From positions 1-16,120 of IMG/VR virus record IMGVR_UViG_2778261035_000013: a DNA stretch of 16,120 bases; one strand, written 5' to 3'. Positions 2,600 through 16,120 of this stretch are shown here, in pieces. This DNA comes from a virus (taxonomy: Duplodnaviria > Heunggongvirae > Uroviricota > Caudoviricetes). The first letter of the stretch is position 1, and each line of letters begins with the position of its first letter. The notes under the pieces were generated by a model. The model worked only from the letters and a program-made list of their open reading frames with translations, was not told the origin of the DNA and did no database searches. The position numbers were made by a program, and so were the translations under genes.

Positions 2600-5287
2600 T
2601 TACTCAGGTTCGGCGCTTCCCAGTACCTGTGTATTGAACTGGTACACACGTTTAAGCCCTATTTCTGGCAGGCGAATGCTGTTTTGCGTCCGGCCATCTT
2701 CACCGGGTTTCAGCCAGCCCGCGTCCACACACAACCTGGCCACCTTACGCGAGTCAAATCCCTTACAGATCTCCTTCCAGCCTGACGGGAGAACGTAGAA
2801 CGTCACAACCGGCTCCGTTACGTTGTCTCCTTTATCGACTTTTCTGAATCCCATCATTGAAACAGGCCGGTTCCTGTCGTCATTCCAGTCAGCAAACCGA
2901 CTGAACTGATTACGCGTCATGAAGTCCCGTACCTGTTCAAGTGCCGCTTTATCTTCCTGATTAGCTGTATGGCCACGGTCAGCCATCCATGCAGCCAGAC
3001 AACGTTGAGCGGCACGAAAGGCCTCTCCCTCCGGCCATCCTGTGATGCCCGCTTTTGTGGCCAGTTCCCCGGCCATCGCAACCAGAGCAAAACGGGTAAC
3101 AGCCCGGCCAACCTGATTCCCGGCATTTTCCGGCGTCAGCCTTCGGGTGTACTCTTTCAATAAGGCTTTCGCCTGGCTGGTCAGTTCCGGCAGTTCAGCG
3201 GTCAGGCAATGCAGCCAGTCGCGGAATGGTGCGCCATGATAATGCGCTACGTGCTGCTCAAGATGCTCAGCCAGGGTTTTCCCGCTACTGAAGCCATGAA
3301 GTTCTTCAAACACGCCATATTTGCCCGAATCGCTTGGGATCTGGATCATTCTGACCTCAACCCCGGCATACGTACGTTCCCCGGCGCTTGCGGCATGCTC
3401 TACCAGTGACAGTTCCCCGGTGGACAGAAACAACAGATTCCAGCGGTTGGTTTCCCTTACCGAACCATCTGTTCTTGCTCTGGCTTTGCCCTGCCCGTTA
3501 GCCAGCATATAAGCGATATTCCCCGCCTCCCTGCCGTCAACCTCCCGGATTTCATCGAGCATCAGCGTGGCATCATTGCGGCGGCTCGCCGTTCCTTCTA
3601 ATGCATTCCCCGTCGCCCGCCACGTATGCCAGAAATCTGTTCCACCACATACTGATGCAGCCACTTTCATCGTCGTGGTTTTACCGTCTGTTGATTCCCC
3701 TTTGAGGTGATAACCTCCACCGCCGATACCAACCAGTTTCAGAAGGGGGGCAGCAAATGCCAGACTCACCGCAAAGGCAAGACGGGCATTCTTTATGCAG
3801 TAACGGCCTATATTTTCACGCCAGTCCTCTGATGTGCCGCTGACACGAAAATCACGCCCCTGCACACTCGATGTTTGTAAGATGACTGACTGGGCTTCGC
3901 GCCCTATCACTTCATCCTGGAGAACGTAAACCCCGCCGTGCCAACCCGTTTTATTCACACAGGTTACTTTTCTGTCCGGTTTACACAGCGAGATATATTC
4001 CATCAGGAATGCTCTGGCCATACCGTTAATGTTGATGTAAGAAAGCCCGTTAACCAGCAGAACGCGGCGCAGTTCTTCCCCGCTGCCACCCAGCATCTCC
4101 ATCGGCATTGCCCATTTACGGCTGTTTCCGTTGGTATCTTCCCATTCCAGCAAACGCCCGTAATTACTTCCATCAGCATCACTGGTGATTGCCGTCACCC
4201 GCAACGGACTGCAAATTTTGATATTACGTATCTCTGTATCACCATCAGACTTATTAACCAGCTTGTCGTACCACAAATATTCTTTTGTCAGCCGGAACCC
4301 TTCTGGTAAACGGGTCTGCCCTTTGCCATGCAACGTCATTTCTTCACGAAAGGCATCTCTCGCCCGTTCTTTCCCCACTTCCTGCCGATAATCATCCCAG
4401 TCAGCCTTATGGCGTACCGGAGGGAGCGTTACCCAGCCATCCACCGCTTTGGCGGCTTTCTCTGCCTGAATACGCCCGGTGTTTTCTTTGCCGTCAGCCA
4501 GATCATTATCTCCTGCCACAATGATCCGGGTTTCCGGCCAGCGTTTTCGGATCTGCTCCGTCACCTTCAGTAAATTGGTGGCAGCGACAGCCGCCACGAT
4601 CCATCCTTCAGTCAGCAGACTGACGGTAAGCGCCGTGGCAAAACCCTCAGTGATAATCACCTGTTCAGGTGTTTCAGCGGGTATATCTGTCAGGGCAATG
4701 AATGCGCCAGACAGCTGGCTACCGGGCAGCAGACTTTTATCCCCGTCAGGATTGATAAGCTGGCCACCGGTAATATTCCCGGAAATATCCGTCAACGGCA
4801 GCAGTAATGAACCGGAGGAAAATGTTATTCCGGCCAGATTCAAAGGCTGTGACAGCAAGGGAAGTGAATACCCGTGTAAGCCCTTGTTTGTCAGATAGAC
4901 CGGCTCACCATTGCAGGACTGCTGTCTGAGTCGGGTATATCCCTCCGCGCCCGCTTCTTTTCCTGCTGCCTTTTTCCTGGCTGGCAAAGCGGGCTTCTCC
5001 TGTATTTCTGGTAATGCAAGCGCCTCAGATACCATCCCGGCGACTTCTTTTATCTTTCTCCCTGTCACCAGACGAACCAGGTCAAGACCATCGCCATGAC
5101 CGCACTGATTACAAAACCACGTCCCACGCCCCGCTTTATCGTCCAGCCGAAAGCGATCTTTTCCACCACAGGCAGGGCAAGCCCCATGATGTCCTGCGGA
5201 CGGTACTTTAATACCTAATGCTGACAGGATATAAGGCCAACGGCCAATTGCAGCCCCTGAAATTGTGGATACAGACGGTGTTTTCAC
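2600..5287 (-). CDS. P4 alpha-like bifunctional DNA primase-helicase (895 aa)
   Basis: N-terminal zinc ribbon CPACGGKDRFRLDDKAGRGTWFCNQCGHGDG, Toprim-like acidic motif IIVAGDNDLADG, Walker A P-loop GESTDGKTT in the C-terminal half. GTG start at 5287 overlaps the stop of the upstream ORF (GTGA). Confidence 0.9.
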   Translation of the reverse strand: MKTPSVSTISGAAIGRWPYILSALGIKVPSAGHHGACPACGGKDRFRLDDKAGRGTWFCNQCGHGDGLDLVRLVTGRKIKEVAGMVSEALALPEIQEKPALPARKKAAGKEAGAEGYTRLRQQSCNGEPVYLTNKGLHGYSLPLLSQPLNLAGITFSSGSLLLPLTDISGNITGGQLINPDGDKSLLPGSQLSGAFIALTDIPAETPEQVIITEGFATALTVSLLTEGWIVAAVAATNLLKVTEQIRKRWPETRIIVAGDNDLADGKENTGRIQAEKAAKAVDGWVTLPPVRHKADWDDYRQEVGKERARDAFREEMTLHGKGQTRLPEGFRLTKEYLWYDKLVNKSDGDTEIRNIKICSPLRVTAITSDADGSNYGRLLEWEDTNGNSRKWAMPMEMLGGSGEELRRVLLVNGLSYININGMARAFLMEYISLCKPDRKVTCVNKTGWHGGVYVLQDEVIGREAQSVILQTSSVQGRDFRVSGTSEDWRENIGRYCIKNARLAFAVSLAFAAPLLKLVGIGGGGYHLKGESTDGKTTTMKVAASVCGGTDFWHTWRATGNALEGTASRRNDATLMLDEIREVDGREAGNIAYMLANGQGKARARTDGSVRETNRWNLLFLSTGELSLVEHAASAGERTYAGVEVRMIQIPSDSGKYGVFEELHGFSSGKTLAEHLEQHVAHYHGAPFRDWLHCLTAELPELTSQAKALLKEYTRRLTPENAGNQVGRAVTRFALVAMAGELATKAGITGWPEGEAFRAAQRCLAAWMADRGHTANQEDKAALEQVRDFMTRNQFSRFADWNDDRNRPVSMMGFRKVDKGDNVTEPVVTFYVLPSGWKEICKGFDSRKVARLCVDAGWLKPGEDGRTQNSIRLPEIGLKRVYQFNTQVLGSAEPE

Positions 5288-5694
5288 AGCAGCACCTCCT
5301 GACCTTCCGGCTTCACAAATTCAAAACCTTCGGGTAGTTCGCCATCAGGTGCACCGAAAATAATATCCCGGTAAACCTCACGCATCTCTGTGACACCAAA
5401 AACTGACAGGCGAATATTTTCTGACATAAAGCCCGGTTTAAGCATCTTTTCCAGTTTCTCTGCGGCCAGTATGCAACCTGCATCAGCCCCAAATTCATTC
5501 ACCCACGGCATTTCAATATGGTAAATAATATTACTCACCACTTTTTCGTGGGTGAGTTCTATTCGTTCGCCATCTTCAATATAAACAGGTTCATTATGAA
5601 CACGCGCCATTAAGGAAATGAATGCATCAGCAATGTAATACCGTAAGACTGCTGTTCGTAAAGCATGCACCTTTAAATTTTGATTATTATTCAT
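5284..5694 (-). CDS. hypothetical protein (136 aa), alpha-operon member
   Basis: ORF with ATG start; start overlaps the stop of the upstream ORF by 8 nt and its stop overlaps the alpha start; backbone-like GC. Confidence 0.6.
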   Translation of the reverse strand: MNNNQNLKVHALRTAVLRYYIADAFISLMARVHNEPVYIEDGERIELTHEKVVSNIIYHIEMPWVNEFGADAGCILAAEKLEKMLKPGFMSENIRLSVFGVTEMREVYRDIIFGAPDGELPEGFEFVKPEGQEVLL

Positions 5695-5923
5695 CGCGCA
5701 TCACTCCCTTAATTGTGCTGGTTTCCTTAACAACGCCATCCAGTTGTTCGGCAATACAGGCCACTAAAGCCGCAGCGCCTTCCGCTGAAACAGTTCTCGC
5801 TCCATTCACTGTGGGAACGGACAGAACCTCTGCAAGAAATTCACTGGCCAGTGCCGCCCGTAACAGACGACTCTCACCCAGTTCACTCAATATGCAGCCT
5901 TGCTTAAAATTCATGGATTTCAT
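5687..5923 (-). CDS. hypothetical protein (78 aa), alpha-operon member
   Basis: ATG at 5923 overlaps the stop of the upstream ORF (ATGA); GGAGGTG Shine-Dalgarno 5 nt upstream. Confidence 0.5.
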   Translation of the reverse strand: MKSMNFKQGCILSELGESRLLRAALASEFLAEVLSVPTVNGARTVSAEGAAALVACIAEQLDGVVKETSTIKGVMRDE

Positions 5924-6123
5924 GCAACCACCTCCCCGGAGCTTTTCACAGGGATACGGGCAGCAAAGCTCAGGATAAATTCAGTGGCAAGTTTAAGGCG
6001 TGCAGCATGCTCGCAGTCTGCGATTACACGCACAGGACGTGGACGGGCATCACGGTCTGTACGGCGGACAGCCAGAAAGACAAAGGTAAATTCAGGGTGA
6101 GATAAAGCAGGGACTGTAGCCAT
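5920..6123 (-). CDS. hypothetical protein (67 aa), first gene of the alpha operon
   Basis: ATG at 6123 preceded by GAAGGAGG Shine-Dalgarno. The ORF-track ORF (5920..6609, 229 aa) extends upstream over the regulatory leader and terminator and is probably not translated there. Confidence 0.45.
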   Translation of the reverse strand: MATVPALSHPEFTFVFLAVRRTDRDARPRPVRVIADCEHAARLKLATEFILSFAARIPVKSSGEVVA

Positions 6124-6175
6124 AATGGCAACCTCCTTCAGATAGCGGGTAACGCTACCACCGGAGTTCCTACGC

Positions 6176-6342
6176 TCATGGGTGGTAGCCCAGACGGGGG
6201 TAGGAATACCGGCTCTGAAGGATACCGGCCAGCCCGAAAGCTGCCCCGCCTGGACTACCATAATACTGATGATGTGGCGTAAAAAATAAAAAAATACAAT
6301 CAGCCACCACACCATAAATTTTAGGTGAGTCAAAGCTGCGAC
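6176..6342 (-). ncRNA. candidate CI/C4-like immunity antisense RNA (boundaries approximate)
   Basis: Region between the intrinsic terminator and the operon RBS that contains the inverted (seqB-like) motif copy at 6199..6224; no coding potential with RBS seen. By analogy with P4 CI RNA and P1/P7 C4 RNA. Ends not determinable from sequence. Confidence 0.3.
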
Positions 6343-6367
6343 ACAAAAAAACACGCCTGGCGCGTGT
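6343..6367 (-). terminator. rho-independent terminator
   Basis: On the minus strand: ACACGC / GCCAG loop / GCGTGT followed by TTTTTTT (plus-strand A-run at 6345..6351). Confidence 0.6.
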
Positions 6368-6563
6368 AGTATCGCCTTCAGATAACACGGGTTCCTACGC
6401 CCGGCTGCCGATTTTGCGGCAACCTTTAAACTATATCCCGTGCATTCCTGGTGAGGCAAGAAATTTATAACCGAAAACTGATCATTGCCTGGATTAATTA
6501 ACGCTGGCATGCTTAAGCCTCTGCTTAAAAATAGTTCTTCATTTTTTCCTGATGCTGTAAACG

Positions 6564-6585
6564 AGACCCGCCTCTGAGCGGGTCT
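6564..6585 (-). terminator. hairpin immediately 3' of the capsid gene (putative terminator)
   Basis: Perfect 8-bp stem AGACCCGC/GCGGGTCT with 6-nt loop, 13 nt after the capsid stop; the T-rich tract is on the plus-strand side only, so function as a minus-strand terminator is uncertain. Confidence 0.35.
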
Positions 6586-6598
6586 TTCTGTCGCTAAG

Positions 6599-7603
6599 TC
6601 AATCCGCAAACGTCAGAGCGCTCTCATCGACAGCCGCGTACAGTTCTGGTTCACCGAGTGCATAGCCTTCATTGCGCAGGTAGGAATGTACGTATTCACT
6701 GTTTTCATCATCAAACTCAGCACGAAACCAGCGTGTTATCGCCTGGGTGTATATATGCAGATTATCCAGCGTCGTTACTGCCAGACGCTTACCCGGCATA
6801 AACGGGGGAATAAACGCAAAGCGGCCAGCAACAGAACTTGTAGCCATCTGTGCAGCATTCACATCAGCCGGGCGGTCTGCGGCATTAAATAACTTCAGGC
6901 GTTGATGTGCTGCCAGCTCTGCCCCAACTAGTACAACCAGACGGGGATCTTCACGAAACTGCTCAGCAATAAGCTCAGTAATCAGATGGTTGGCCAGAGA
7001 ATCAATATTTTTCCAGGTGCCAGTCTCTCCCAGAGTGACAGGCTCAGAGATGATTTGCTTCCCGTTTCCGTAGGCTTTCGCCAGTGCATGCCAGCCAATA
7101 TTGACATCCTCGCCTTTTTTATTGATTTCCGGGTTTGTAGTATTTGCAATCGACACACCATTGAAACCGATCCGCAGCATATCCAGCGCATATGCCTGAG
7201 CAAAAAAGCTCTCAACCGTTTTCTCAAACTCATCCGGCACGCCGGTATGGTAAATATGAGACATATCGGAATAGCTGATCCGGGCGCAGGTATCCGTCTC
7301 TGTCAGAAAGAACTCCGTACCATTGATTGCTATTTTTTTGTGGAAACGGCCACCATCCGCACGTCCGGTATGCAGTTCACTGGCACCAATATTGACGGCA
7401 TTACCTGACACGGCGTTAACATCACGTAGCGTGATATTTTTAATAAGCCAACCGGATTCCAGAATTGAGGTACGCAGTATATTTTCAGTGGGTTCGCTTA
7501 ATGCAAAGCGTCTGTTTGATTCCTCCTGATAGTTAGTGCCAGTAACGAATTTATTATGATAACGACGTGCTGCGTCCGGCCTTTCAGTTTTGAAGGCATA
7601 CAT
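6599..7603 (-). CDS. P2 gpN-like major capsid protein (334 aa; HK97 fold inferred)
   Basis: Recognisable similarity to P2 gpN as recalled from memory: N-terminal RFALSEPTENILRTSILESGWLIKNITLRDV vs KFTVEPSVTQTLMNTMQESSDFLTRINIVPV; GFNGV; NIGW vs AVGW; EDPRLVVLVGAELAA vs EDPDLVVIVGRQLLA; LDNLHIY vs LENLSIY. ATG start with GGTGA RBS. Confidence 0.75.
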   Translation of the reverse strand: MYAFKTERPDAARRYHNKFVTGTNYQEESNRRFALSEPTENILRTSILESGWLIKNITLRDVNAVSGNAVNIGASELHTGRADGGRFHKKIAINGTEFFLTETDTCARISYSDMSHIYHTGVPDEFEKTVESFFAQAYALDMLRIGFNGVSIANTTNPEINKKGEDVNIGWHALAKAYGNGKQIISEPVTLGETGTWKNIDSLANHLITELIAEQFREDPRLVVLVGAELAAHQRLKLFNAADRPADVNAAQMATSSVAGRFAFIPPFMPGKRLAVTTLDNLHIYTQAITRWFRAEFDDENSEYVHSYLRNEGYALGEPELYAAVDESALTFAD

Positions 7604-7625
7604 AGTTTTTCACCTTTTTTAGTAT

Positions 7626-8498
7626 TTAAGAAAAGATTTTATTTTTGTACTCAGTAACCCGATTGTATTTCATTACATGCTCAACATAATCCCGGTCACT
7701 TACGACTGAACGTAATACATAATTATCTGCTCGATAGTACTCCCTGTAAGCCATGACTCTTGCCATTCCACCGTTATTTAATACATAACGATCAGTTGGA
7801 ACGCTACAACGGCTAATAATTTCATTCACAGAATCAGACAAAGATTTGAGTGCATCTGTAATAAATTTAATATCACGAACAACGTCACCGTCATTAAACA
7901 CAGAAATAAAATCAGCAGGGATCTGGCCGGATTGAGGAAATATGCTCAGTAAACGCTTCTCAACTCCCTTACCAATGTAGTTAACTTCATCGGCCAGTAC
8001 GCCCGGTAAAAGCTTGATTGTGCTCAGTCGGTTATGTTGCTCATTCAGCCGGGAAACAGCCAGATGGTAACACCGTTCAGCATCCGCTCGTTCAGCATGC
8101 CCCGTTTTATTCGTTTTGGCTTCAGCAATGCTACTGACGCCGTTTTTTGAGAATGTGCTTTTCCATGCAACTTCCGCATTTGTCACTTCACGCTGCCGGA
8201 AAGATAACTCTTCCTCTTCCTGACGACACAACTGGGCATACCGGCTTAGGAGTAGGTTGATCTCATTCGCCACAGCTTCCGTATCAGGTACTGTTAATCC
8301 CGTAAGTGAATACAGCTTTTCACCTTTAGCGCGCAGCTTATTTAATGAAAATATTTCAATAATTCGCACAATACATGCAGTGTCGCTATGAGTTTCTTTA
8401 AACGGACTTACTTTATAGTTTCCTAACACGGAAACATATTCATTCTTAATTGGAAGGGATATGTATTGACTCCCCGCCGGTTGTAGACGGTAATTCAT
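7626..8498 (-). CDS. hypothetical AT-rich protein (290 aa) immediately upstream of the capsid gene
   Basis: ATG with GAGGAG Shine-Dalgarno; 22-bp gap to the capsid gene; central region rich in charged/helical sequence (LLLSRYAQLCRQEEEELSFRQREV...); lower GC than flanking backbone. Confidence 0.6.
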   Translation of the reverse strand: MNYRLQPAGSQYISLPIKNEYVSVLGNYKVSPFKETHSDTACIVRIIEIFSLNKLRAKGEKLYSLTGLTVPDTEAVANEINLLLSRYAQLCRQEEEELSFRQREVTNAEVAWKSTFSKNGVSSIAEAKTNKTGHAERADAERCYHLAVSRLNEQHNRLSTIKLLPGVLADEVNYIGKGVEKRLLSIFPQSGQIPADFISVFNDGDVVRDIKFITDALKSLSDSVNEIISRCSVPTDRYVLNNGGMARVMAYREYYRADNYVLRSVVSDRDYVEHVMKYNRVTEYKNKIFS

Positions 8499-8534
8499 AT
8501 AAACTCCTCATAAATTCTTCTAATACTAATGTTT

Positions 8535-8735
8535 TTACTCTGAAGAATGACTATCACGCCAAGCATAGTAGTCACCAGCACGCCATCGGGACATACGACC
8601 TAACTTGATTGGTTTAGGAAAACGTCCCAGAGAAATCAGTTTATAAATCCATTTATCAGTAAACAGACAATCAGATGTAATGAATTTCATATCAATGAGC
8701 GAGTCAGCAGAAGGACGATTATCAGTAAACCCCAT
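8535..8735 (-). CDS. alpA: AlpA-family phage transcriptional regulator / excisionase-like (66 aa)
   Basis: Motif LGRFPKPIKLGRMSRWRAGDYYAW matches the AlpA FPKPxKLG...W signature. ATG at 8735 preceded by AGAGAGGAA; the ORF-track start at 8759 is a TTG extension. Confidence 0.75.
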   Translation of the reverse strand: MGFTDNRPSADSLIDMKFITSDCLFTDKWIYKLISLGRFPKPIKLGRMSRWRAGDYYAWRDSHSSE

Positions 8736-8800
8736 AATGAGTTCCTCTCTATGTATCAATCTATATCAACGAAGAGGATTAAAACATCGTTCAAAAACAT

Positions 8801-8835
8801 AAAAAAGGCGAGTAAGAAAAATTTCCTTACTCACC
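8801..8835 (-). terminator. rho-independent terminator after the int-proximal cargo gene
   Basis: Stem 8807..8816 / 8826..8835 (GGCGAGTAAG vs GGTGAGTAAG, one mismatch) with 9-nt loop, followed on the minus strand by TTTTTT (plus A-run 8801..8806). Confidence 0.5.
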
Positions 8836-8842
8836 AAAATTG

Positions 8843-9631
8843 TTAATTTTTTGTAAATGATGGTTTCTTGAATATAGATGATATTAGTTTGCTAATAATT
8901 GGGTGTGATAGCGGAGGCTCTTTTTTATCAGGCCAAAATTCCTCAGCCCGACTAAAGATAAGGTCAGCAAGGGCTGCTGCATTTTCCTTTCGGTATGCCA
9001 TGTCCTCTTTATAAAGATATAATGCTACACTTAGAATCTCATTTCTCTTGGTAGCATGTCTTTCTTGCTGTGCAATTGATAACGATTTATATTTATCATT
9101 AGAAACATCACCATTTAATATCAGATGCAATTTCTTTACATCTTCCCGCTCCAGGTACGCATCTCCCTCATATCCAAACCCATCATCATTTTTCCAGTCA
9201 ATTTGAATATATTTGACCATTTCAGAATAGGTGGTACCAGTAGGAGACAACAATGATGGGTACTCCGGGAACTGCCCCTCATAAAAAACGAAATCACTTT
9301 TAACTTTTGGTGGCATTTGGAAATAGCCTTTTGTACTCGCCAGCACTAGTTTTTTATCTTTTTTAACTTCATTAATCTTAATCAAACTAAACTCAGATAT
9401 ATAACTAAAACCATCTTTATCTTTTTTCAAAGAGTTTATATTCTGAATAAAAGAGTCCACATCTCTTACTTTATGCTTTGAAAAAGACCATCGCCCACAC
9501 ATTCTTAGCGACAATTGAATGTCTTTTTCATCCGCAATATAAATAACATCTTGCTCATCGCAGCCCAATATTTTAGCGGCCTCACTAATACTATAATGAG
9601 TTCTATGAAGCTTGAGAGTATTATTTACCAT
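8843..9631 (-). CDS. hypothetical AT-rich cargo protein (262 aa) between int and alpA
   Basis: ATG start 3 bp after the integrase stop; N-terminal helix-turn-helix-like stretch YSISEAAKILGCDEQDVIY; followed by a terminator; AT-rich. Confidence 0.6.
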   Translation of the reverse strand: MVNNTLKLHRTHYSISEAAKILGCDEQDVIYIADEKDIQLSLRMCGRWSFSKHKVRDVDSFIQNINSLKKDKDGFSYISEFSLIKINEVKKDKKLVLASTKGYFQMPPKVKSDFVFYEGQFPEYPSLLSPTGTTYSEMVKYIQIDWKNDDGFGYEGDAYLEREDVKKLHLILNGDVSNDKYKSLSIAQQERHATKRNEILSVALYLYKEDMAYRKENAAALADLIFSRAEEFWPDKKEPPLSHPIISKLISSIFKKPSFTKN

Positions 9632-9634
9632 TAC

Positions 9635-10816
9635 TCAAGACTCCGTTCCACCAATAAAATCACTGTACCATTGCATCATTTCCCGACGCCCATCAAGATA
9701 CTGAGCATGATTATATATCCCCCGAATAGCATTTTTATCCAAATGTGCAAGCTGGGTTTCAATCCATGCACTATTGAAGCCTTTTTCATGCAAAATAGTG
9801 CTCATTGTGTGTCTGAAACCATGGCCAGTAACTCGGCCAGCATATCCAATACGCTTAAAGACCTGATTAATACTGGCCTCACTCATGCACTTACTTGGAT
9901 CGTTGCGCCCTGGAAACATCAAAGGATAGTTTCCAGTCAGTTCTTTTAATGTTTCAAGATGGGCTAATGCTTGATTTGAAAGCGGCACAATATGAGCACG
10001 TCGCATTTTCATACGTTCTTTAGGAATCTCCCACACCGCATTATCAAAATCCACCTCACGCCACTCACCTGCTCTTAGTTCTCCTGTTCTTAGACCCGTC
10101 AGGATAAGTAAATGTGCCCCCAGCAATACAATTGGGCTTCCTGAATAAGCGTTAAGGGCAGTAAAGAACTCCGGCAGCTCGTTGGCTTTGAGGAATGGAT
10201 AGTGGACTGCTTCATGTCCTTGCATCGCACTGGCAAGATCCGGTGCAGGATTGTAGATTGCTCTACCCGTTACGATGGCATAGCGGAAAACTTCACCGCA
10301 TCGCTGACGGACTTTCTTCGCTTTCTCCATAGCGCCTCGTGCTTCTATCAACCTCAGTACTTCAAGAAGTTCTAGGGGCTGAATATCGGCTATAGGTTTG
10401 TGTCCAATATGCGGGAAAATGTCTTTCTCAAACGCCTCAATGATGTCTGAAGCATAGCCCTCAGACCATTTGGGAGATTTCATTTTGTGCCACTCTAACG
10501 CCACTTCTCTGAATGGGTTAAGTGTCTCGATCGCTGCGTTTAAAGCATGCTTCTTTGCTTTTTTCACTTCGCCAGGATCTTCACCTGCTGCGAGTAGTTT
10601 CTTTGCGTCTTCGCGTTTTTGTCTGGCATCTGCGAGGGTGACTGTTGGATAGACACCAAAGGACAAGCGCTTCTCTTTACCAGCAAAACGGTACTTCATA
10701 CGCCAGTAACGCGAGCCATTAGGTTCAACCTGAAGGTACAGGCCACCTCCATCAGATAGCTTATAGCTCTTCTCTTTTCCTTTAGCGGCTTCAACCTTGC
10801 GAGCATTCAGCATCAT
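9635..10816 (-). CDS. int: P4-family tyrosine integrase
   Basis: N-terminus KSYKLSDGGGLYLQVEPNGSRYWRMKYRFAGKEK typical of P4-type integrases; C-terminal catalytic region with ...HGFRHT... and ...LAHLD...YNHAQY... consistent with the R/H/R/Y tyrosine-recombinase motifs; adjacent to the tRNA fragment. Start placed at the ATG at 10816; the ORF-track start at 10885 is TTG. Confidence 0.9.
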   Translation of the reverse strand: MMLNARKVEAAKGKEKSYKLSDGGGLYLQVEPNGSRYWRMKYRFAGKEKRLSFGVYPTVTLADARQKREDAKKLLAAGEDPGEVKKAKKHALNAAIETLNPFREVALEWHKMKSPKWSEGYASDIIEAFEKDIFPHIGHKPIADIQPLELLEVLRLIEARGAMEKAKKVRQRCGEVFRYAIVTGRAIYNPAPDLASAMQGHEAVHYPFLKANELPEFFTALNAYSGSPIVLLGAHLLILTGLRTGELRAGEWREVDFDNAVWEIPKERMKMRRAHIVPLSNQALAHLETLKELTGNYPLMFPGRNDPSKCMSEASINQVFKRIGYAGRVTGHGFRHTMSTILHEKGFNSAWIETQLAHLDKNAIRGIYNHAQYLDGRREMMQWYSDFIGGTES

Positions 10817-10980
10817 TGGGGGCACATTTCCTAGACCGAACAGAACATGCCCCCGATTGTGCCCCCAATTGTATGTTGATTTCAAGAGATAGGGGTTGAC
10901 GTCAAATGACGAAGAATCGCGTAATATCTATGTTTTTAAAGGGCTTTGTTGATTTGAGATGACTTGGAAATACTAAGGGA

Positions 10981-11026
10981 TGGTGCCGATAATAGGAGTC
11001 GAACCTACGACCTTCGCATTACGAAT
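10981..11026 (-). other. 46-nt 3' fragment of tRNA-Thr(CGU) (thrW-like): att core / displaced tRNA 3' end, not an intact tRNA
   Basis: Minus strand reads ATTCGTAATGCGAAGGTCGTAGGTTCGACTCCTATTATCGGCACCA, matching a thrW-type tRNA from the anticodon loop to the CCA end; the match breaks at 11027, so the 5' half of the tRNA is absent. Confidence 0.7.
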
Positions 11027-11356
11027 TATAAGAATCCGATTCTAATTCAAAGCATTACCCCATCAACACTGCGCTCACACGTCCCACCACATCAAAACAT
11101 GTAAAGCCTTGCAAGCCATTGTGAGGCCTTATGTGTCTCAGTTTTGTCCCATCTTGTATTACGACTCGCATAGCTAATGAAGATAAACGTGACGACAAAC
11201 GGCGAAGCAGTCTTCTTTTCTTTCGCTGCTTCCCCACACCCAGCATGCATACCTTTCCGTCATAACTGAAGTGAATGTCTGTTATGAGCGAGGAGCGGAC
11301 CTTGAATGAAGCACAAACATCCTATAGCTCCTATTATCAAAATGCGTGAGCAAAAA

Positions 11357-12172
11357 TTAATTGATATTTTGGGATATTTCTCTCAAGTATGGTTCAACCT
11401 CTGGGCGTTGCATATGATGCTTCATTGAGTCAAGAAAGGTTATGGGGGTTTGCATTACATCTACTTTAGATTTATTTTTCCTAATGAGAGTCATTCCTTT
11501 GCAAGTTTCTAAATATTCCTTAACTAAAGCTTTCTTTCGATTTCTATGCAAATCGCCTTTAAAAGCTAGAATATGAAAAATTGCGGCACCAATTACAATC
11601 TGTTTCACCGCGCATTCGGATGATTCGAATTCGCCCCATGAAATTCGACCAAAGAAAGGATTCGCATATCCAGAAGGATGCGCTTTGAGGTTATGGCCAT
11701 ATTTTAGCATTTCCGATGGTGTCAATTTTAATGGTTTAAACAACCCAGCCGAAATTGCAAAGTCTGAAAAGTCAGAACTCAACCCCAAAATAACATCTTT
11801 GTATTTATCAAAAAAAGACAATTTCTTCTCACTAGCCCTAGATGAATTAAATGCAACTTTAAGTAGCCAGCGAGAAAGCAAGCTATAATTATAATCGATA
11901 TTAACTTTTTCTTTTAAAAAACACTCTGTAAAGAAACCAGAGCGCTCTAGCATATTTTTGACATAACCATCTAAATTACATAGAACTACGTTATTACAAT
12001 GAAAACAAACATCTTTTATTTTAGCCTCACCACTTATCATTTTTTTTGATTTTTCTTGCCATCCTATAGTTTTCCCAGATGCTGTACTATATTGATATTC
12101 ATAGATGAAAGACGGGAGTATATGTTCTCTAGTCATTTTCCCTTCCTGACCACAATATATGCAAGTGCTCAT
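11357..12172 (-). CDS. hypothetical AT-rich protein (271 aa) with N-terminal HNH-like nuclease motif
   Basis: CIYCGQEGKMTREHILPSF...VCFHCNNVVLC gives a CxxC...EH...CxxC-N HNH-like arrangement in the first ~65 aa; ATG with AAGGA RBS; AT-rich. Confidence 0.6.
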   Translation of the reverse strand: MSTCIYCGQEGKMTREHILPSFIYEYQYSTASGKTIGWQEKSKKMISGEAKIKDVCFHCNNVVLCNLDGYVKNMLERSGFFTECFLKEKVNIDYNYSLLSRWLLKVAFNSSRASEKKLSFFDKYKDVILGLSSDFSDFAISAGLFKPLKLTPSEMLKYGHNLKAHPSGYANPFFGRISWGEFESSECAVKQIVIGAAIFHILAFKGDLHRNRKKALVKEYLETCKGMTLIRKNKSKVDVMQTPITFLDSMKHHMQRPEVEPYLREISQNIN

Positions 12173-12497
12173 CTTATTCCTTTATCAAAGATATAATAAC
12201 TAAAATTCGATTATAACAATTAAAAACTCGCGTTAGTAGTTGTTAACTTATCAATAAACAGTTTCTCAATTATTAGTCAGCATCATCAGAAGAAACCCCT
12301 CTCCAAAGATAATTTTATAAAATAATATAAATGTCCACGCCTGGCACGGAGTAGACTGGCTATCTAAGCTAAAGGTCTGCTGTGAGCGAAAAGCTGACAG
12401 GACGTAGTTTCTTGTTTAAAGAATCAGTTAAGGCATTAAAAATAGATGTAACCAGAGCCAAGGTATAATATCCTGGCTCTATTTACACTTGCGTACA

Positions 12498-13202
12498 TTA
12501 TTCTTGCTTTTTGGGAGGTTTTGGGTGTTTCTCAGGTAATTTTTCTGCAATCTTAAATACCCCCTCATCTTTTAGTATTGTTCGCATTACAAAATTTTCT
12601 ATAATTACCAAAAGTGATTTAAATTCAGCTTCGTTCGGTGACCATGCCCTGTGTGCTGCTGAGTTGCCAGCTTCGGTTACAATTTTAAGTTGGCTCCTTT
12701 CTGTTTCCCCAATAAAACCTTCCTCTTTAAGAATGTCAACCTTCTGGCCTAATGTATGTCCTGGGTGAATATTTAAAACTTCGACTGTTCTGTCAAAAAT
12801 AGTTCTGAGCCCAATTGCCGCTAAAATGAGTGATTTATTTTGAAATGCAATATACATTTCGTTCATTATCACATAAAGCTGATAATCTTTGCTTAATATC
12901 TCGCCAAACCAAGTGGGTCTAATCTCTTCTTGCTCTTGCGTAGGATATGTTGATATATGATAGTTATATACTATACAATCATAGCCTGACTCATCTCTTT
13001 CATAGTCGTAATCTTCACTATGACGGGATTTAATATATGTAAATATTCCGTCGCATCCCATGCACTCTAATAATTTGTATTCACTTTCAGCCCAAAAATA
13101 GTTGTCCCCATCCCCCTCGCTCCATTCTCTTTTTTTATAACCTATTGTGTGACAATTTTTTTCACCTTTACAGTATGGACAAGGCGCTTTGATTTTTTCC
13201 AT
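12498..13202 (-). CDS. hypothetical AT-rich protein (234 aa) with N-terminal zinc ribbon
   Basis: CPYCKGEKNCH...CMGCDG Cys cluster; C-terminal region with a GNSAAH motif loosely reminiscent of DUF4145/HEPN-like domains (unverified); ATG start without a clear Shine-Dalgarno. Confidence 0.5.
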   Translation of the reverse strand: MEKIKAPCPYCKGEKNCHTIGYKKREWSEGDGDNYFWAESEYKLLECMGCDGIFTYIKSRHSEDYDYERDESGYDCIVYNYHISTYPTQEQEEIRPTWFGEILSKDYQLYVIMNEMYIAFQNKSLILAAIGLRTIFDRTVEVLNIHPGHTLGQKVDILKEEGFIGETERSQLKIVTEAGNSAAHRAWSPNEAEFKSLLVIIENFVMRTILKDEGVFKIAEKLPEKHPKPPKKQE

Positions 13203-13572
13203 AATAATTATTCTGCCAATTAAATTAATATTGATATGACATATATGCCAATGATTTATAAACGATAAATTGACTATTCACTTTACTACAATAATTTTCA
13301 TATGAGTAGTGATAAGCCTCTCATTTTCTTTGTCGTAGATTGATCTGCTCTGTATCGATTAACACCGAATGGGGGAGTAGCTTCCGCTTTTGGCACATAG
13401 TAGTCCTAGAGACAGTGACGTAAAGTCATGGAGGATCGGTGGGAGGAGGTGCTAATCCTTTCATACAAAAAATATGTAAAATCAATAACGGCTGTAAATC
13501 ATTCAATACTCGCACTATCGGAAGTTCACCAGCCAGCCGCAGCACGTTCTTGCATACGACGAGCCTGCGGTT

Positions 13573-14127
13573 TCATTTATCTCCGACCGGAAACATCTTA
13601 TACAGTGTCGATACACCAACATCATAGATGATCGCCACCTTTTGGCGAGGAACGCCTGATGCAATTAATCGCCCGGCCTGCGCCCATTGTTCTGGTGTAA
13701 GTTTGGGACGACGTCCACCAATTCGTCCCTGCGCGCGAGCAGCTTCCAGTCCAGCTTTTGTTCGTTCAACAATCAGTTCTCGTTCCATTTCAGCCAAGGC
13801 ACCCATCACATGAAAGAAAAAACGCCCCATCGGTGTGCTGGTATCAATAGCATCCGTCAGGCTGCGAAAATTAACGCCACGTTCGCGCAACTCCTCAACT
13901 AGAATGACCAAATGCCGCATACTACGCCCCAGCCGATCCAGCTTCCAGACAACCAGTGTGTCACCTGCCGATAATGTCCTGAGCAGTTTTTTCAGTCCGG
14001 GCCTTTCGGACTTCGTACCGCTTATCTTGTCTTCAAAAATCAGCTCGCATCCTGCACAGTTCAGCGCATTACGTTGTAGATCTGTGTTCTGGTCATTTGT
14101 TGACACACGTACATAGCCAATAAGCAT
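13573..14127 (-). CDS. pin: Pin/Gin/Hin-family serine DNA invertase
   Basis: MLIGYVRVSTNDQNTDLQ...LVVWKLDRLGRSM...FRSLTD...MGRFFFHVMGALAEMERELI matches e14 Pin / Mu Gin (catalytic Ser in VRVST). Start placed at the ATG at 14127; the ORF-track start at 14163 is an upstream extension. Confidence 0.9.
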   Translation of the reverse strand: MLIGYVRVSTNDQNTDLQRNALNCAGCELIFEDKISGTKSERPGLKKLLRTLSAGDTLVVWKLDRLGRSMRHLVILVEELRERGVNFRSLTDAIDTSTPMGRFFFHVMGALAEMERELIVERTKAGLEAARAQGRIGGRRPKLTPEQWAQAGRLIASGVPRQKVAIIYDVGVSTLYKMFPVGDK

Positions 14128-14181
14128 GGTAGATCTCCCTGACAAAAGCAGGAATGATGCCATTTGCTCGTTATTTCTGCA

Positions 14182-14650: not shown

Positions 14651-15094
14651 ATGAACTCAGTATTCTTTTCACCCGGAAGTAAAAGTTTTTATCTGCAAGA
14701 ATTGTTTCCAGAATATGAGGATGCGGGAACGCTTCCTGATGATGTTATTGAAATTACCAGAGAAACATATGAGCAATTTCTTGGTCTGCATCCAGAAGGG
14801 AAAGAAATTGGCGCTGACAGTTCAGGACGGCCAATATGGATTAATTCCCCACCCCCTTCAAAAGAGGATGAGGTGTTGACGGCTGAAATGAAAAAAATAT
14901 CTTTGGTTTCAGAAGTCAATACCTACATCAATACCCATCAGTGGCCTGGCAAAGCTGCTATTGGTCGTCTGAAAGGCGAGGAACTGGCGCAATATAATTC
15001 GTGGCTGGATTATCTGGACGCACTGGAACTGGTCGATACTTCCTGTGCGCCAGATATTGAATGGCCTACGCCTCCGGCAGTTCAGGCCAGATGA
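14651..15094 (+). CDS. tail fibre assembly protein (147 aa) of the silent cassette
   Basis: ATG 2 nt after the upstream stop; C-terminal half AAIGRLKGEELAQYNSWLDYLDALELVDTSCAPDIEWPTPP parallels the C-terminus of the opposite assembly protein (TRLNAVLDYIDAVTATNTSTAPDVIWPELP). Confidence 0.7.
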   Translation: MNSVFFSPGSKSFYLQELFPEYEDAGTLPDDVIEITRETYEQFLGLHPEGKEIGADSSGRPIWINSPPPSKEDEVLTAEMKKISLVSEVNTYINTHQWPGKAAIGRLKGEELAQYNSWLDYLDALELVDTSCAPDIEWPTPPAVQAR

Positions 15095-15668
15095 CATCCG
15101 GCGCTGTGCTGGTATTTGTTGCCGTCACCGCGTCAATGTAATCCAGCACAGCGTTAAGCCGGGTTGTTTCTGCCTGCATCAGCTTCCGTCCGGCCTGTAA
15201 TTTCAGCTGAATCAGACCGATGGAAGCCATTGCAGCATCAATCAGTGACTGACGCTGTGCTTCTGCCGCGTCTACTGCGGCGCTATGCTGTGCCTCAGTA
15301 TCGGTCACCCATTTCTCACCATCCCATTTATCGTATGGCGTTAATGGGGCAATAGTGGTTGTATTTTCGGGGTAATCACCCGGTGCTGTGATCTGTTTTG
15401 ATTCTCCCGTTTCGGTGTTATAGACGATTTCACCGCGATGGTCTGGCACATATTCCCATGAATTTAAATTCACAGAACGACAGATAGCATAACCTGCCTT
15501 ATGTATACCTGGTGCATCCAGACAGGAATATGCCGGGATACCAACACCAACGGCAAGATATTCACTTGAAGTGGAAATATATTCCCGAGTTTCACCATCA
15601 TAGTTATAAACGGTAATATCCCCTGCCTTTGTAGCAACAAGTCCACTATTTAATATTGCTTTATCCAT
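15066..15668 (-). CDS. tail fibre assembly protein (200 aa) of the expressed cassette
   Basis: ATG overlaps the stop of the upstream fibre ORF (TAATG); Tfa/U-like size and C-terminal motif; convergent 29-bp overlap with the other assembly gene. Confidence 0.75.
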   Translation of the reverse strand: MDKAILNSGLVATKAGDITVYNYDGETREYISTSSEYLAVGVGIPAYSCLDAPGIHKAGYAICRSVNLNSWEYVPDHRGEIVYNTETGESKQITAPGDYPENTTTIAPLTPYDKWDGEKWVTDTEAQHSAAVDAAEAQRQSLIDAAMASIGLIQLKLQAGRKLMQAETTRLNAVLDYIDAVTATNTSTAPDVIWPELPEA

Positions 15669-16120
15669 TATGCTGCTCTCACGATATAGTTAAATGCAAT
15701 GTTGCGTGGACGGGTATCGACGGGGTTAACGGCCACTGTACCCGACACGGACTGGTCATTACCGTTGCTAACGGTAATGTTACTACTGGTTGATCCAATC
15801 CCTACTGAATCGGTAAATTTAGCACCTGAGCCGCTCAAAGTTCCCGAGATGATAGCTAGCCCCACATAAAAAGTACCTACAGTTGGCTCTTGTGTTGACA
15901 GCACCGCACGCCTTGAATCAACGCCGCGCCCATCATCCCAGCCACGAATAAACTCACCACGTAAATCAGGCAATTTATTTGTCGGATAAGCCTTTGCCAG
16001 TTCCGGGTATTCTTCAGCAGAAAAAGCCGCACCGTTGCATTTCAGCCAGCCTGTTGGCGGTGTGGCTGAAGGCCATGGAACAGGCACACCAACAGGTAAT
16101 GCAGAGCCTTCTCCCAAACC
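15668..16120 (-). CDS. tail fibre protein, variable C-terminal part; 5' partial (constant part lies beyond the window)
   Basis: Frame is open to the window edge (the track's M at 16117 is TTG). Contains PVGVPVPWP...GWLKCNGAAFSAEEYPELAKAY, which looks like the collar motif of Mu/P1/e14-type fibre tips. Reading frame passes through the right half-site. Confidence 0.75.
   Translation of the reverse strand, partial: GLGEGSALPVGVPVPWPSATPPTGWLKCNGAAFSAEEYPELAKAYPTNKLPDLRGEFIRGWDDGRGVDSRRAVLSTQEPTVGTFYVGLAIISGTLSGSGAKFTDSVGIGSTSSNITVSNGNDQSVSGTVAVNPVDTRPRNIAFNYIVRAA

What the first reader, a model, noticed from the sequence alone, without database searches (positions are those of the whole stretch)
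11357..13202. Two AT-rich genes (HNH-like and zinc-ribbon proteins) in the slot between pin and the att fragment: candidate two-gene defence module
Seen in sequence: the 271-aa protein carries a CxxC...EH...CxxC-N HNH-like motif at its N-terminus with about 200 aa of unassigned sequence; the 234-aa protein has an N-terminal Cys cluster and a C-terminal GNSAAH motif loosely reminiscent of DUF4145/HEPN-like domains. Both are strongly AT-rich, same strand, with a hairpin downstream of the first. Established: in e14 the position next to pin is occupied by the restriction gene mcrA, an HNH nuclease. Inference: this is the equivalent accessory slot here, holding an uncharacterised nuclease-based system; whether the two act together is unknown.
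Basis: partly seen in the sequence, partly recalled or inferred. Interest (0 to 1): 0.65.

Follow-up and report, generated by a model that had tools for sequence, protein, structure and literature searches.

The report
Two separate solo prophage nuclease genes
The two AT-rich genes between pin and the thrW att fragment are real. They are not a two-gene system but two independently mobile single-gene cargo genes: a zinc-ribbon/HEPN-like putative RNase and a zinc-finger HNH-like putative DNase, each a plausible but untested anti-phage gene.

Summary
Both ORFs and all the motifs described are confirmed, and both genes are under purifying selection (dN/dS 0.08-0.18).

**geneB** (234 aa) has a Cys4 zinc ribbon plus a DUF4145/HEPN-like domain. 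This is the architecture of the single-gene abortive-infection RNase RAZR (PD-T7-4). It belongs to a separate, large family that no PADLOC model hits and that lacks RAZR's catalytic arginine.

**geneA** is 271 aa; PGAP's 259-aa call cuts off the first CxxC. It has a strictly conserved CxxC..EH..DxCxxCN HNH_5-like core plus about 190 aa with no solved-structure relative. DefensePredictor already lists it as a predicted, untested defence gene.

**The pairing is not conserved.**
- In 5,426 complete E. coli genomes, geneA occurs in 4, geneB in 14, and both together in 1.
- None of 44 species-level loci carrying geneA relatives has a geneB relative within 10 kb.
- Each gene occurs alone in the same P2 tail-fibre/sheath slot and in other mobile-element slots.
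- The pair recurs only as one near-identical pin-adjacent prophage end at thrW, once with two genes inserted between them.
- Each gene has its own flanks, with a strong hairpin after geneB and a 325-bp spacer.

**Verdict:** these are stacked solo cargo genes in the slot that holds mcrA in e14. Moderate interest.

The parts
11357..12172 (-). geneA: 271-aa zinc-finger HNH_5-like protein with an unassigned C-terminal domain. The true start is the ATG at 12172; PGAP's 259-aa call starts at 12136.
   Evidence: ORF. The family has 94 clusters. C4 and C7 are conserved in at least 90% of 50 relatives and in 41 of 41 species-level homologues. dN/dS 0.08-0.14. AF2 pLDDT 92.7, pTM 0.90.
11933..12172 (-). 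geneA residues 1-80: Cys4 zinc site plus a putative His-Me (HNH) catalytic core. Motif: C4, C7, E16, H17, D54, C56, C59, N60, D68.
   Evidence: Pfam HNH_5 gives E 0.013 for this protein, below the cut-off. It matches 17 of 19 relatives, best E 7.7e-6. DSSP shows strand 13-17 ending at H17, strand 51-56 and helix 57-78 carrying C59 and N60. hhalign places CxxC..EH on McrA's CxxC..HH, but weakly (E 0.1).
11360..11920 (-). geneA residues about 85-271: alpha/beta domain with no known relative. It carries the invariant helix R101-W-L-L-K105-x3-N109-S-x-R112, and R176.
12210..12218 (-). Extended -10-like element TGTTATAAT, 38 nt upstream of the geneA ATG. A candidate promoter of geneA's own.
   Evidence: Read directly from the sequence. 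It lies inside the upstream flank that travels with geneA in other contexts. Not experimentally supported.
12375..12399 (.). 25-nt junction patch where the geneB module (12375-13395/13400) and the geneA module (11160/11274-12399) overlap.
   Evidence: blastn end-points are identical in unrelated contexts. Variants of the patch sit at the module ends in other loci. It occurs once in the window, with 0 expected by chance.
12446..12488 (-). Strong hairpin 10 nt downstream of the geneB stop codon; a U-run follows 11 nt later. Terminator-like.
   Evidence: dG -20.4 kcal/mol, z -4.0. The consensus terminator scan did not call it.
12498..13202 (-). geneB: 234-aa zinc-ribbon + DUF4145 (HEPN-like) protein.
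   Evidence: ORF. Pfam DUF4145. phrog_1305 matches over the full length at E 2.5e-28. Family size. dN/dS 0.12-0.18.
12951..13196 (-). geneB residues 3-84: beta-rich Cys4 zinc-ribbon domain, with knuckles C8/C11 and C47/C50.
   Evidence: C8 and C47 are invariant, and C11 and C50 at least 90% conserved, in 100 diverse relatives. AF2 strands 3-8, 13-25, 38-47 and 53-61.
12600..12860 (-). geneB residues 115-201: DUF4145/HEPN-like helical domain, with invariant R133 and H184.
   Evidence: Pfam. The best Foldseek PDB matches are HEPN proteins: 2hsb (prob 1.00, target-normalised TM 0.68), YutE, HepT, and the HEPN toxin 7ae8; all have E>0.001. Invariant residues.
13573..14163 (-). pin: serine invertase at the end of the Mu-like-tailed prophage. 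It marks the upstream edge of the cargo slot.
   Evidence: Resolvase E 1e-51 plus HTH_7. Annotated pinE in EC11. Homology with e14 ends at its stop codon.
10981..11026 (-). thrW' : the 3' 46 nt of tRNA-Thr(CGU). This is the att fragment separating the pin prophage from the P4-type-integrase satellite.
   Evidence: 100% match to positions 31-76 of K-12 thrW. ARAGORN finds no complete tRNA.

Best explanation
The region holds two unrelated, independently mobile single-gene cargo units. They were stacked by recombination in the variable slot between pin and attR of a thrW-integrated, e14-like, Mu-tailed prophage. That is the slot that holds the restriction gene mcrA in e14.

**geneB (most likely).** A stand-alone, phage-triggered RNase of the zinc-ribbon + DUF4145/HEPN type.
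- The Cys4 zinc-ribbon domain would sense a phage protein.
- The helical domain would dimerise to form an active site around the invariant H184, with R133 and R185.
- On activation it would cut tRNA or mRNA and stop translation, an abortive infection as shown for RAZR/PD-T7-4.

**geneA (most likely).** A stand-alone DNase.
- A Cys4-stabilised His-Me (HNH) finger would cleave DNA, with H17 as general base and E16 and N60 (possibly D54) as metal ligands.
- The C-terminal domain of unknown fold, with a conserved basic helix, would supply target recognition or auto-inhibition.
- It has no methyltransferase or immunity partner. It therefore must either recognise a feature of foreign DNA (a type IV-like logic, as for McrA) or stay off until infection.

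**Shown here:** gene reality, domain architecture, residue conservation, independence of the two genes, and residence in mobile-element slots.

**Inferred:** nuclease activities, triggers, and an anti-phage role.
For: **Independence.**
- E. coli counts are 4, 14 and 1 of 5,426 genomes.
- 0 of 44 species-level geneA loci have a geneB relative within 10 kb. The only recurrent neighbours among 53 loci are integrases, recombinases and HTH proteins.
- Each module has distinct, sharply bounded flanks that meet at window 12375-12399.
- A hairpin follows geneB, then a 325-bp spacer.
- In L030 two genes are inserted between the pair.

**Cargo and hotspot nature.**
- geneA alone lies in the P2 tail-fibre-assembly/sheath slot in CE0011b. 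A geneB homologue alone lies in the same slot in O121 strain 201805972.
- Other geneA contexts are a lambdoid prophage end next to the bio operon, an integrative element, an ICE, and chromosomal islets.
- Other geneB contexts are a Rac-like prophage beside an anti-phage dGTPase, an ICE, a Pseudomonas P2-like late operon, and a locus with AbiTii.
- A preprint reports defence hotspots within the P2 late/tail genes (bioRxiv 10.64898/2026.02.27.708500).

**geneB.**
- DUF4145 above the Pfam cut-off, and the best fold matches are HEPN proteins.
- The Cys4 ribbon, R133 and H184 are invariant in 100 relatives of 26-50% identity.
- RAZR has the same architecture and works as a single gene (PMC13017515).
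- Pseudogenised alleles exist (an IS1 insertion and frameshifts), as would be expected of a dispensable or costly accessory gene.

**geneA.**
- The HNH motif is invariant in 41 of 41 homologues across phyla, although overall identity is 23-55%.
- HNH_5 matches 17 of 19 relatives.
- DefensePredictor Table S10 lists WP_029396804.1, the 259-aa PGAP form of geneA carried by CE0011b and NB4833. It is called a 'Predicted novel defense gene' with mean log-odds 6.33, against a cut-off of 4 (PMC13092281).
Against: - No experiment exists on either protein or on a close homologue.
- Neither gene, nor any of 162 relatives scanned, matches a PADLOC-DB v2.0.0 model.
- geneB lacks the arginine eight residues before the histidine that RAZR needs (T176 here; the position is variable across the family). 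Catalytic competence is therefore unproven.
- PHROGs labels the geneB family 'DNA binding protein'.
- geneA's own HNH_5 score is below Pfam's cut-off. Whole-chain fold searches did not retrieve any HNH nuclease.
- DefensePredictor's overall validation rate was 45%.
- Neither protein has a tblastn match in 50,697 phage records.
- The pair travels together on roughly 100 contigs, so cooperation within this one lineage is not formally excluded.
Confidence: 0.6

Rival explanations
1. The two genes form one cooperative two-gene defence module. For example, an RNase and a DNase would act together, or one would sense for the other.
For: They are adjacent on the same strand, both AT-rich, and lie in a defence-type slot. 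The arrangement pin-geneB-geneA recurs in many assemblies, and each exact allele is on about 100 contigs.
Against: - Every instance of the pair carries an identical geneB protein next to pin, so it is one lineage linked by descent.
- 13 E. coli genomes have only geneB and 3 have only geneA.
- 0 of 44 independent species-level loci hold both.
- Both exact alleles also occur alone: L023, L024, L026 and L027 for geneA; L032 and L038 for geneB.
- L030 has two unrelated genes between them.
- The genes have separate flanks, with a hairpin and a 325-bp spacer between them.
Confidence: 0.05
2. One or both genes are not anti-phage. geneA could be a selfish or homing-type HNH endonuclease, or a nuclease serving the element itself. 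geneB could be a prophage DNA- or RNA-binding regulator or a toxin-like addiction gene.
For: No defence database matches either gene. PHROGs labels the geneB family 'DNA binding protein'. geneA moves as a compact single-gene unit with sharp ends. About half of DefensePredictor predictions fail to validate.
Against: - geneA's insertion contexts are unrelated to each other: a P2 slot, a lambdoid prophage end, an ICE, and an islet next to the phn operon. That is not the behaviour of a site-specific homing endonuclease.
- Neither gene sits next to packaging or replication genes that it could serve.
- Both genes occupy slots where defence genes are documented.
- The zinc-ribbon + DUF4145 architecture has a validated defence precedent.
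Confidence: 0.2
3. For geneA specifically: it is a type IV (modification-dependent) restriction endonuclease, functionally replacing McrA. It would not be an infection-triggered suicide nuclease.
For: It occupies the exact positional equivalent of mcrA. It is a solitary nuclease with no methyltransferase, antitoxin or conserved neighbour. It has an HNH core plus a separate domain that could read modified bases.
Against: It has no sequence similarity to McrA beyond the CxxC..H motif (BLASTP E 3.8; hhalign E 0.1). The domain order is reversed. The C-terminal domain matches no SRA, PUA, YTH or other known modified-base reader in the PDB.
Confidence: 0.25

Closest known systems
RAZR (PD-T7-4), the ring-activated zinc-finger RNase of E. 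coli UMB1727 (Nature 2026, PMC13017515; Vassallo et al. 2022, PMC9519451)
   Same: For geneB: a single gene of similar size (234 aa against an ORF of about 219 aa). It has an N-terminal Cys4 zinc ribbon, a linker, and a C-terminal Pfam DUF4145/HEPN-like domain with a conserved histidine. It is carried as accessory DNA.
   Different: - No PADLOC defence model matched geneB or 112 relatives.
- Profiles of the geneB family found no RAZR chain in the PDB sequences.
- The arginine eight residues before the histidine (RAZR R146) is absent. The invariant arginine is R133, on another helix.
- The zinc-ribbon domain is longer (residues 3-84 against about 1-65).
- The trigger, RNase activity and oligomerisation are untested.
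DS-38 (DefensePredictor; HEPN + zinc finger; WP_001313577.1)
   Same: An E. coli single-protein system with HEPN and zinc-finger domains. Its zinc finger differs from that of PD-T7-4.
   Different: DS-38 is encoded by a 1,101-nt CDS (about 366 aa), against 234 aa for geneB, so it is not the same protein. Homology could not be tested because no sequence was available.
McrA (EcoKMcrA) of prophage e14
   Same: For geneA: an HNH-type nuclease gene with no partner, sitting directly downstream of pin at the prophage end.
   Different: There is no detectable homology. The HNH motif is N-terminal in geneA and C-terminal in McrA. geneA's second domain has an unknown fold. Dependence on DNA modification is untested.
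Pfam HNH_5 (PF14279) / His-Me finger endonucleases with two CxxC zinc knuckles
   Same: The motif order CxxC..(E/D)H..P..CxxCN, beta-beta-alpha secondary structure, and family-wide profile hits.
   Different: About 30 residues are inserted between the two strands. The window protein scores below Pfam's cut-off (15.9 against 27.5 bits). No solved HNH structure was retrieved.
Prophage and satellite defence hotspots (P2 old/tin and late-gene slots; P4 psu-int slot)
   Same: Both genes appear, singly, in the P2 tail-fibre-assembly/sheath slot and in other prophage, ICE and islet slots. They are AT-rich and patchily distributed.
   Different: The slot here is the pin-attR end of a Mu-like-tailed prophage at thrW. 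Neither gene has been shown to defend.

Membership tests
RAZR / PD-T7-4 | N-terminal Cys4 zinc-ribbon domain | tested here: met
   C8 and C47 are invariant, and C11 and C50 at least 90% conserved, in 100 relatives. The AF2 model shows paired beta-hairpins.
RAZR / PD-T7-4 | C-terminal DUF4145 (divergent HEPN) domain | tested here: met
   Pfam PF13643 at E 1.1e-11, 45 bits against a cut-off of 23.1. The best Foldseek PDB hits are HEPN proteins, though all have E>0.001.
RAZR / PD-T7-4 | Catalytic pair R146...H154, an arginine eight residues before the histidine | tested here: not met
   H184 is invariant, but the position eight residues before it is T176 and varies across the family. The invariant arginine is R133, and R185 is at least 90% conserved.
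RAZR / PD-T7-4 | Recognised by the family's sequence model | tested here: not met
   No PADLOC-DB v2.0.0 hit for geneB (E up to 1), for 12 close relatives or for 99 distant ones. That this release contains the PD-T7-4 model rests on my knowledge. The library did work on another window protein. DefenseFinder was not available.
RAZR / PD-T7-4 | Works as a single gene without a partner | tested here: met
   geneB homologues are solo in Rac-like, P2-like, ICE and plasmid-like contexts. This is genomic evidence only.
RAZR / PD-T7-4 | Activated by phage portal or Gp77 rings; cleaves ssRNA; abortive infection | not testable with these tools
   Needs phage assays and biochemistry.
HNH / His-Me finger nuclease (Pfam HNH_5) | Profile match above the curated threshold | tested here: inconclusive
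   The window protein scores 15.9 bits against a cut-off of 27.5. 17 of 19 relatives match at E<=0.1, best 7.7e-6. Three relatives carry a precomputed PF14279 hit.
HNH / His-Me finger nuclease (Pfam HNH_5) | Conserved catalytic His at the end of strand 1, Asn in the helix, and a Cys4 zinc site | tested here: met
   C4, C7, E16, H17, D54, C56, C59 and N60 are identical in 41 of 41 homologues. DSSP shows strand 13-17, strand 51-56 and helix 57-78.
HNH / His-Me finger nuclease (Pfam HNH_5) | Structural similarity to a solved HNH nuclease | tested here: not met
Multi-gene defence system (the proposed geneB+geneA module) | Co-occurrence of the two families in phylogenetically independent genomes | tested here: not met
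   1 of 5,426 E. coli genomes has both. 0 of 44 species-level loci do. All joint occurrences share identical alleles next to pin.
Multi-gene defence system (the proposed geneB+geneA module) | Operon organisation (tight spacing, one transcription unit) | tested here: inconclusive
   The spacer is 325 bp, with a strong hairpin after geneB. The flanks are separately conserved. There is an extended -10-like element before geneA. No transcript data are available.
McrA-type type IV restriction | Homology to McrA | tested here: not met
   BLASTP E 3.8. hhalign E 0.1, over the CxxC..H motif only.
McrA-type type IV restriction | Cleavage dependent on DNA modification | not testable with these tools
   Needs nuclease assays on modified and unmodified DNA.
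Mobile-element cargo ('moron') in a variable slot | Sharp homology break at the slot edges, atypical composition, patchy distribution, alternative occupants | tested here: met
   Homology with e14 ends at the pin stop codon. GC is 0.35 against 0.50. The genes are in 4 and 14 of 5,426 genomes. The two genes are alternative occupants of the P2 G/FI slot.

The most novel reading that the evidence does not exclude
geneA founds a previously uncharacterised, phylum-spanning family of single-protein anti-phage nucleases. In this reading a Cys4 His-Me (HNH) finger is coupled to a sensor or recognition domain whose fold has no solved relative. In parallel, the geneB family would be a RAZR-like RNase that uses a non-canonical HEPN site, with R133 and H184 on different helices, and a different zinc-ribbon sensor.
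Probability: 0.35. Interest if true: 0.55.

Novelty: new variant of a known kind. Interest (0 to 1): 0.4.

Why it matters
If either gene defends, this locus shows a prophage-end slot accumulating independent single-gene immunity modules by short-patch recombination.

It would also supply two compact nucleases for mechanistic study.
- geneB is a relative of RAZR with a different sensor domain and a different active-site layout. It could test whether activation by phage-protein rings is general.
- geneA is an HNH enzyme with a confidently predicted but unprecedented second domain. It is found from Enterobacteriaceae to Paenibacillus and cyanobacteria.

Practical consequences:
- RefSeq's start codon for geneA removes part of the zinc site and should be corrected.
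- Annotation pipelines should not merge adjacent hotspot cargo genes into 'systems' without a co-occurrence test.

Tried and rejected
- **Family libraries.** PADLOC, NCBIfam and Pfam on both proteins returned only DUF4145 for geneB and a sub-threshold HNH_5 for geneA. PADLOC on 50 geneA relatives, 13 geneB relatives and 100 further geneB relatives gave no real hit.
- **Solved-structure sequence searches.** Profiles A1, A2 and A4 found nothing significant. RAZR entries 9Y9C and 9Y6U were not retrieved, so either they are absent from the copy or they are too divergent.
- **Phage records.** tblastn of both proteins against 50,697 phage records gave no match.
- **RNA searches.** Rfam on 10800-13700 gave nothing above threshold. 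ARAGORN found no complete tRNA.
- **Promoters.** The sigma-70 scan found no more sites than in shuffled sequence, so it is not informative.
- **Is geneB DS-38?** Rejected on length. geneB accessions were not found in the stored DefensePredictor tables, which are truncated.
- **A conserved partner for geneA.** None was found among 53 loci. The 63-aa ORF at 11055..11246 downstream of geneA lies outside the module in two contexts and is low-complexity, so it was rejected as a partner.
- **RAZR sequence.** It could not be obtained; only its accession, RRL46918.1. A direct alignment or structure superposition was therefore impossible.
Full report
**1. Observation**

Both ORFs exist on the minus strand exactly where stated: 11357..12172 (271 aa, here geneA) and 12498..13202 (234 aa, here geneB). 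Their GC is 0.344 and 0.362, against 0.496 for pin and 0.437 for the window.

- geneA has C4xxC7, E16-H17 and C56xxC59-N60.
- geneB has C8, C11, C17, C47 and C50, and A-G-N-S-A-A-H184-R.

A strong hairpin follows geneB at window 12446-12488 (dG -20.4 kcal/mol, z -4.0).

Both are real genes. dN/dS against homologues in other elements and genera is 0.08-0.18. Both have many relatives.

**2. Setting**

The window's closest complete genome is E. coli EC11. Identity is 99.5-99.8% over 10954-13700, but only about 90% or no match elsewhere, so the source is another strain.

Read on the minus strand the order is as follows.
- A Mu-like-tailed prophage with e14-type ymfQ, tail-fibre and pin genes.
- pin (13573..14163).
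- geneB, then geneA.
- The exact 3' 46 nt of tRNA-Thr thrW (10981-11026).
- A P4-type integrase (9635..10885) that begins a satellite.

In K-12, e14 ends pinE-mcrA-attR. The window's homology to e14 stops at the pin stop codon.

**3. geneB**

- Pfam DUF4145 matches residues 115-201 above the curated cut-off (E 1.1e-11).
- phrog_1305 matches the full length (E 2.5e-28), although PHROGs labels it 'DNA binding protein'.
- The AF2 model (pLDDT 81) has a beta-rich domain at residues 3-84 and a helical domain at 101-221.
- Its best PDB matches are HEPN proteins: 2hsb with prob 1.00 and target-normalised TM 0.68, then YutE, HepT and the HEPN toxin 7ae8. All have E>0.001.
- A full HMMER scan finds 2,722 50%-identity clusters at E<=1e-3 and 301 at E<=1e-30. 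All 150 listed hits align over nearly the whole profile, and most are about 230 aa.
- In 100 relatives of 26-50% identity the invariant residues are C8, C47, R133 and H184. C11, C50, D137 and R185 are at least 90% conserved.

DUF4145 is an accepted divergent HEPN family that is sometimes fused to zinc ribbons (PMC3710099).

The same architecture defines RAZR (PD-T7-4). RAZR is a single-gene abortive-infection RNase that assembles around phage portal or Gp77 rings through its zinc-finger domain and cleaves ssRNA (PMC13017515).

geneB is not a RAZR family member by the tests I could run.
- No PADLOC model hits it or 112 relatives.
- The arginine eight residues before the histidine (RAZR R146) is T176 here, and that position varies across the family.
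- Its zinc-ribbon domain is longer.

DS-38, another validated E. coli zinc-finger-HEPN protein, is about 366 aa and so is a different protein.

**4. geneA**

The family has 94 clusters at 90% identity. It has a short form of about 260-280 aa and a long form of about 430 aa with an extra C-terminal domain. All members are annotated 'hypothetical' or 'HNH endonuclease'.

PGAP starts the gene at M13 (259 aa). However, C4 and C7 are conserved in at least 90% of relatives and in 41 of 41 species-level homologues, so the 271-aa reading is right.

Pfam HNH_5 is sub-threshold for the window protein (15.9 bits) but hits 17 of 19 relatives, best E 7.7e-6.

C4, C7, E16, H17, D54, C56, C59, N60 and D68 are identical in all 41 full-length homologues. 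These span gamma- and beta-proteobacteria, Paenibacillus, cyanobacteria and myxobacteria at 23-55% identity. None of these residues was part of the search pattern.

The AF2 model is confident (pLDDT 92.7, pTM 0.90). It places H17 at the end of a strand and C59 and N60 in the following long helix, as in a His-Me finger with a roughly 30-residue insert.

WP_029396804.1, the 259-aa PGAP form of geneA carried by CE0011b and NB4833, is listed in DefensePredictor Table S10. It appears there as an uncharacterised 'Predicted novel defense gene' with mean log-odds 6.33 against a cut-off of 4. It was not tested, and the overall validation rate was 45% (PMC13092281).

**5. Do the two belong together?**

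No.
- In 5,426 complete E. coli genomes, geneA is in 4, geneB in 14, and both in 1.
- geneA alone lies at a lambdoid prophage end beside the bio operon (J31), in an integrative element (NB4833), and in the P2 tail-fibre-assembly/sheath slot (CE0011b).
- geneB alone lies in Rac-like prophages next to an anti-phage dGTPase.
- An 85%-identical geneB homologue lies in the same P2 slot in an O121 strain. The two genes are thus alternative occupants of one slot.
- More distant homologues are solo in Cedecea, Dickeya and a Salmonella ICE for geneA. For geneB they are solo in a Duffyella ICE, a Pseudomonas P2-like late operon and a plasmid-like locus with AbiTii.
- A scan of one genome per species returned 44 loci with geneA relatives. 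An HMM of the geneB family found none within 10 kb. The only recurrent neighbours among 53 loci were integrases, recombinases and HTH proteins.

Exact-allele look-ups do show pin-geneB-geneA on many contigs. In every case geneB is identical and lies next to pin. The flanks seen after geneA are of two kinds: a P4-type integrase as in the window, or XdhC/xanthine-dehydrogenase-type genes, which I take to be the pao genes that follow CP4-6 downstream of thrW in K-12. A remnant also occurs in a 5.66-Mb genome. This is one lineage. In one such contig two unrelated genes sit between the pair. Both exact alleles also occur alone.

**6. Module anatomy**

- The DNA that travels with geneA elsewhere spans window 11160/11274 to 12399.
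- The DNA that travels with geneB spans 12375 to 13395/13400.
- The two overlap in a 25-nt patch (12375-12399). Variants of it sit at the module ends in unrelated contexts, which suggests short-homology recombination.
- The hairpin after geneB, the 325-bp spacer and an extended -10-like TGTTATAAT 38 nt before the geneA ATG point to separate transcription. That is not proven.

**7. Mechanism**

The best-supported view is two stacked, independent single-gene cargo units, each a candidate anti-phage nuclease.

For geneB, I infer from RAZR that the zinc ribbon senses a phage protein. HEPN-like dimers built around H184, R133 and R185 would then cleave RNA and arrest translation.

For geneA, I infer from the motif that a zinc-stabilised His-Me finger cuts DNA. 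The unknown C-terminal domain, with its conserved basic helix R101-K105-N109-R112, would give target recognition or auto-inhibition. Because it has no partner gene, it must either discriminate foreign DNA (a type IV-like logic) or be switched on by infection.

Architecture, conservation, independence and mobile-element residence are shown here. Activities, triggers and phenotype are inferred.

**8. Novelty and score**

- The two-gene module is not supported.
- geneB is a new variant of a known kind: zinc-ribbon-HEPN single-gene immunity.
- geneA is an uncharacterised HNH family already flagged by a machine-learning predictor, with a second domain of unknown fold.
- Candidate defence genes in prophage-end slots are expected, so overall interest is moderate (0.4).

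Noticed in passing
window 12136-12172 (geneA start): RefSeq/PGAP annotates geneA as 259 aa starting at M13 (WP_063406870, WP_029396804, WP_000196387). That cuts off the conserved C4xxC7 zinc knuckle. Homologues across phyla support the 271-aa start.
   Followed up: yes
window 12375-12399: A 25-nt patch (plus strand: GTCTGCTGTGAGCGAAAAGCTGACA) lies exactly where the geneB and geneA modules meet. Related versions sit at the ends of each module in unrelated genomes. It is possibly a short-homology recombination site for cargo swapping.
   Followed up: partly
window 1-1284 (-): An AT-rich ORF that reaches position 1, the edge of the window. It matches the PADLOC phage-defence candidate PDC-M36A (E 1e-43). 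It is probably cargo at the far end of the thrW satellite.
   Followed up: no
window 2600-10885 (-): The satellite next to the att fragment encodes several recognisable genes: a P4-type integrase, a P2-family major capsid protein homologue (6599..7603, PF05125 E 8e-67), an Ash protein, and a DUF927/Toprim primase. Two AT-rich ORFs with no family match (7626..8498 and 8843..9631) sit right after the integrase, the usual cargo position.
   Followed up: partly
window 14942-16117: This tail-fibre segment is inverted relative to E. coli EC11 (91% identity on the opposite strand). That is consistent with pin-mediated inversion of the tail-fibre cassette.
   Followed up: no
L006 7058-7534; hits H7/H33, H38, H39, H41, H42: Several E. 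coli copies of geneB are damaged: an IS1 insertion in ET979, and 704-nt frameshift alleles annotated as truncated DUF4145 proteins. A 158-aa truncated form is on 122 contigs.
   Followed up: partly
L030 479-4816: One metagenome contig has pin-geneB, then two unrelated genes (287 aa and 299 aa), then geneA-integrase. The same two genes precede geneA alone at an ssrA/smpB island (L027, L031).
   Followed up: partly
geneB residues 133, 184, 185 (window 12804-12806, 12651-12653, 12648-12650): The geneB family has no arginine at the position eight residues before its invariant histidine, where RAZR has R146. The invariant pair is R133 and H184, on different helices, with R185 adjacent. This may be a non-canonical HEPN site or an inactive one.
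   Followed up: partly
P0028, P0029, P0030 and about 40 other relatives: A long form of the geneA family (about 430 aa) carries an extra C-terminal domain of about 150 aa. It weakly matches Pfam Crr6 (E 1.7e-4). Significance unknown.
   Followed up: no
L007 8434-11729, L003 9437-12732, L026 2301-3463: In the P2 slot of CE0011b, in the NB4833 element and in L026, geneA is preceded by the same block: a transglycosylase-domain gene and, in the first two, several hypothetical genes. This may be a larger cargo cassette.
   Followed up: no
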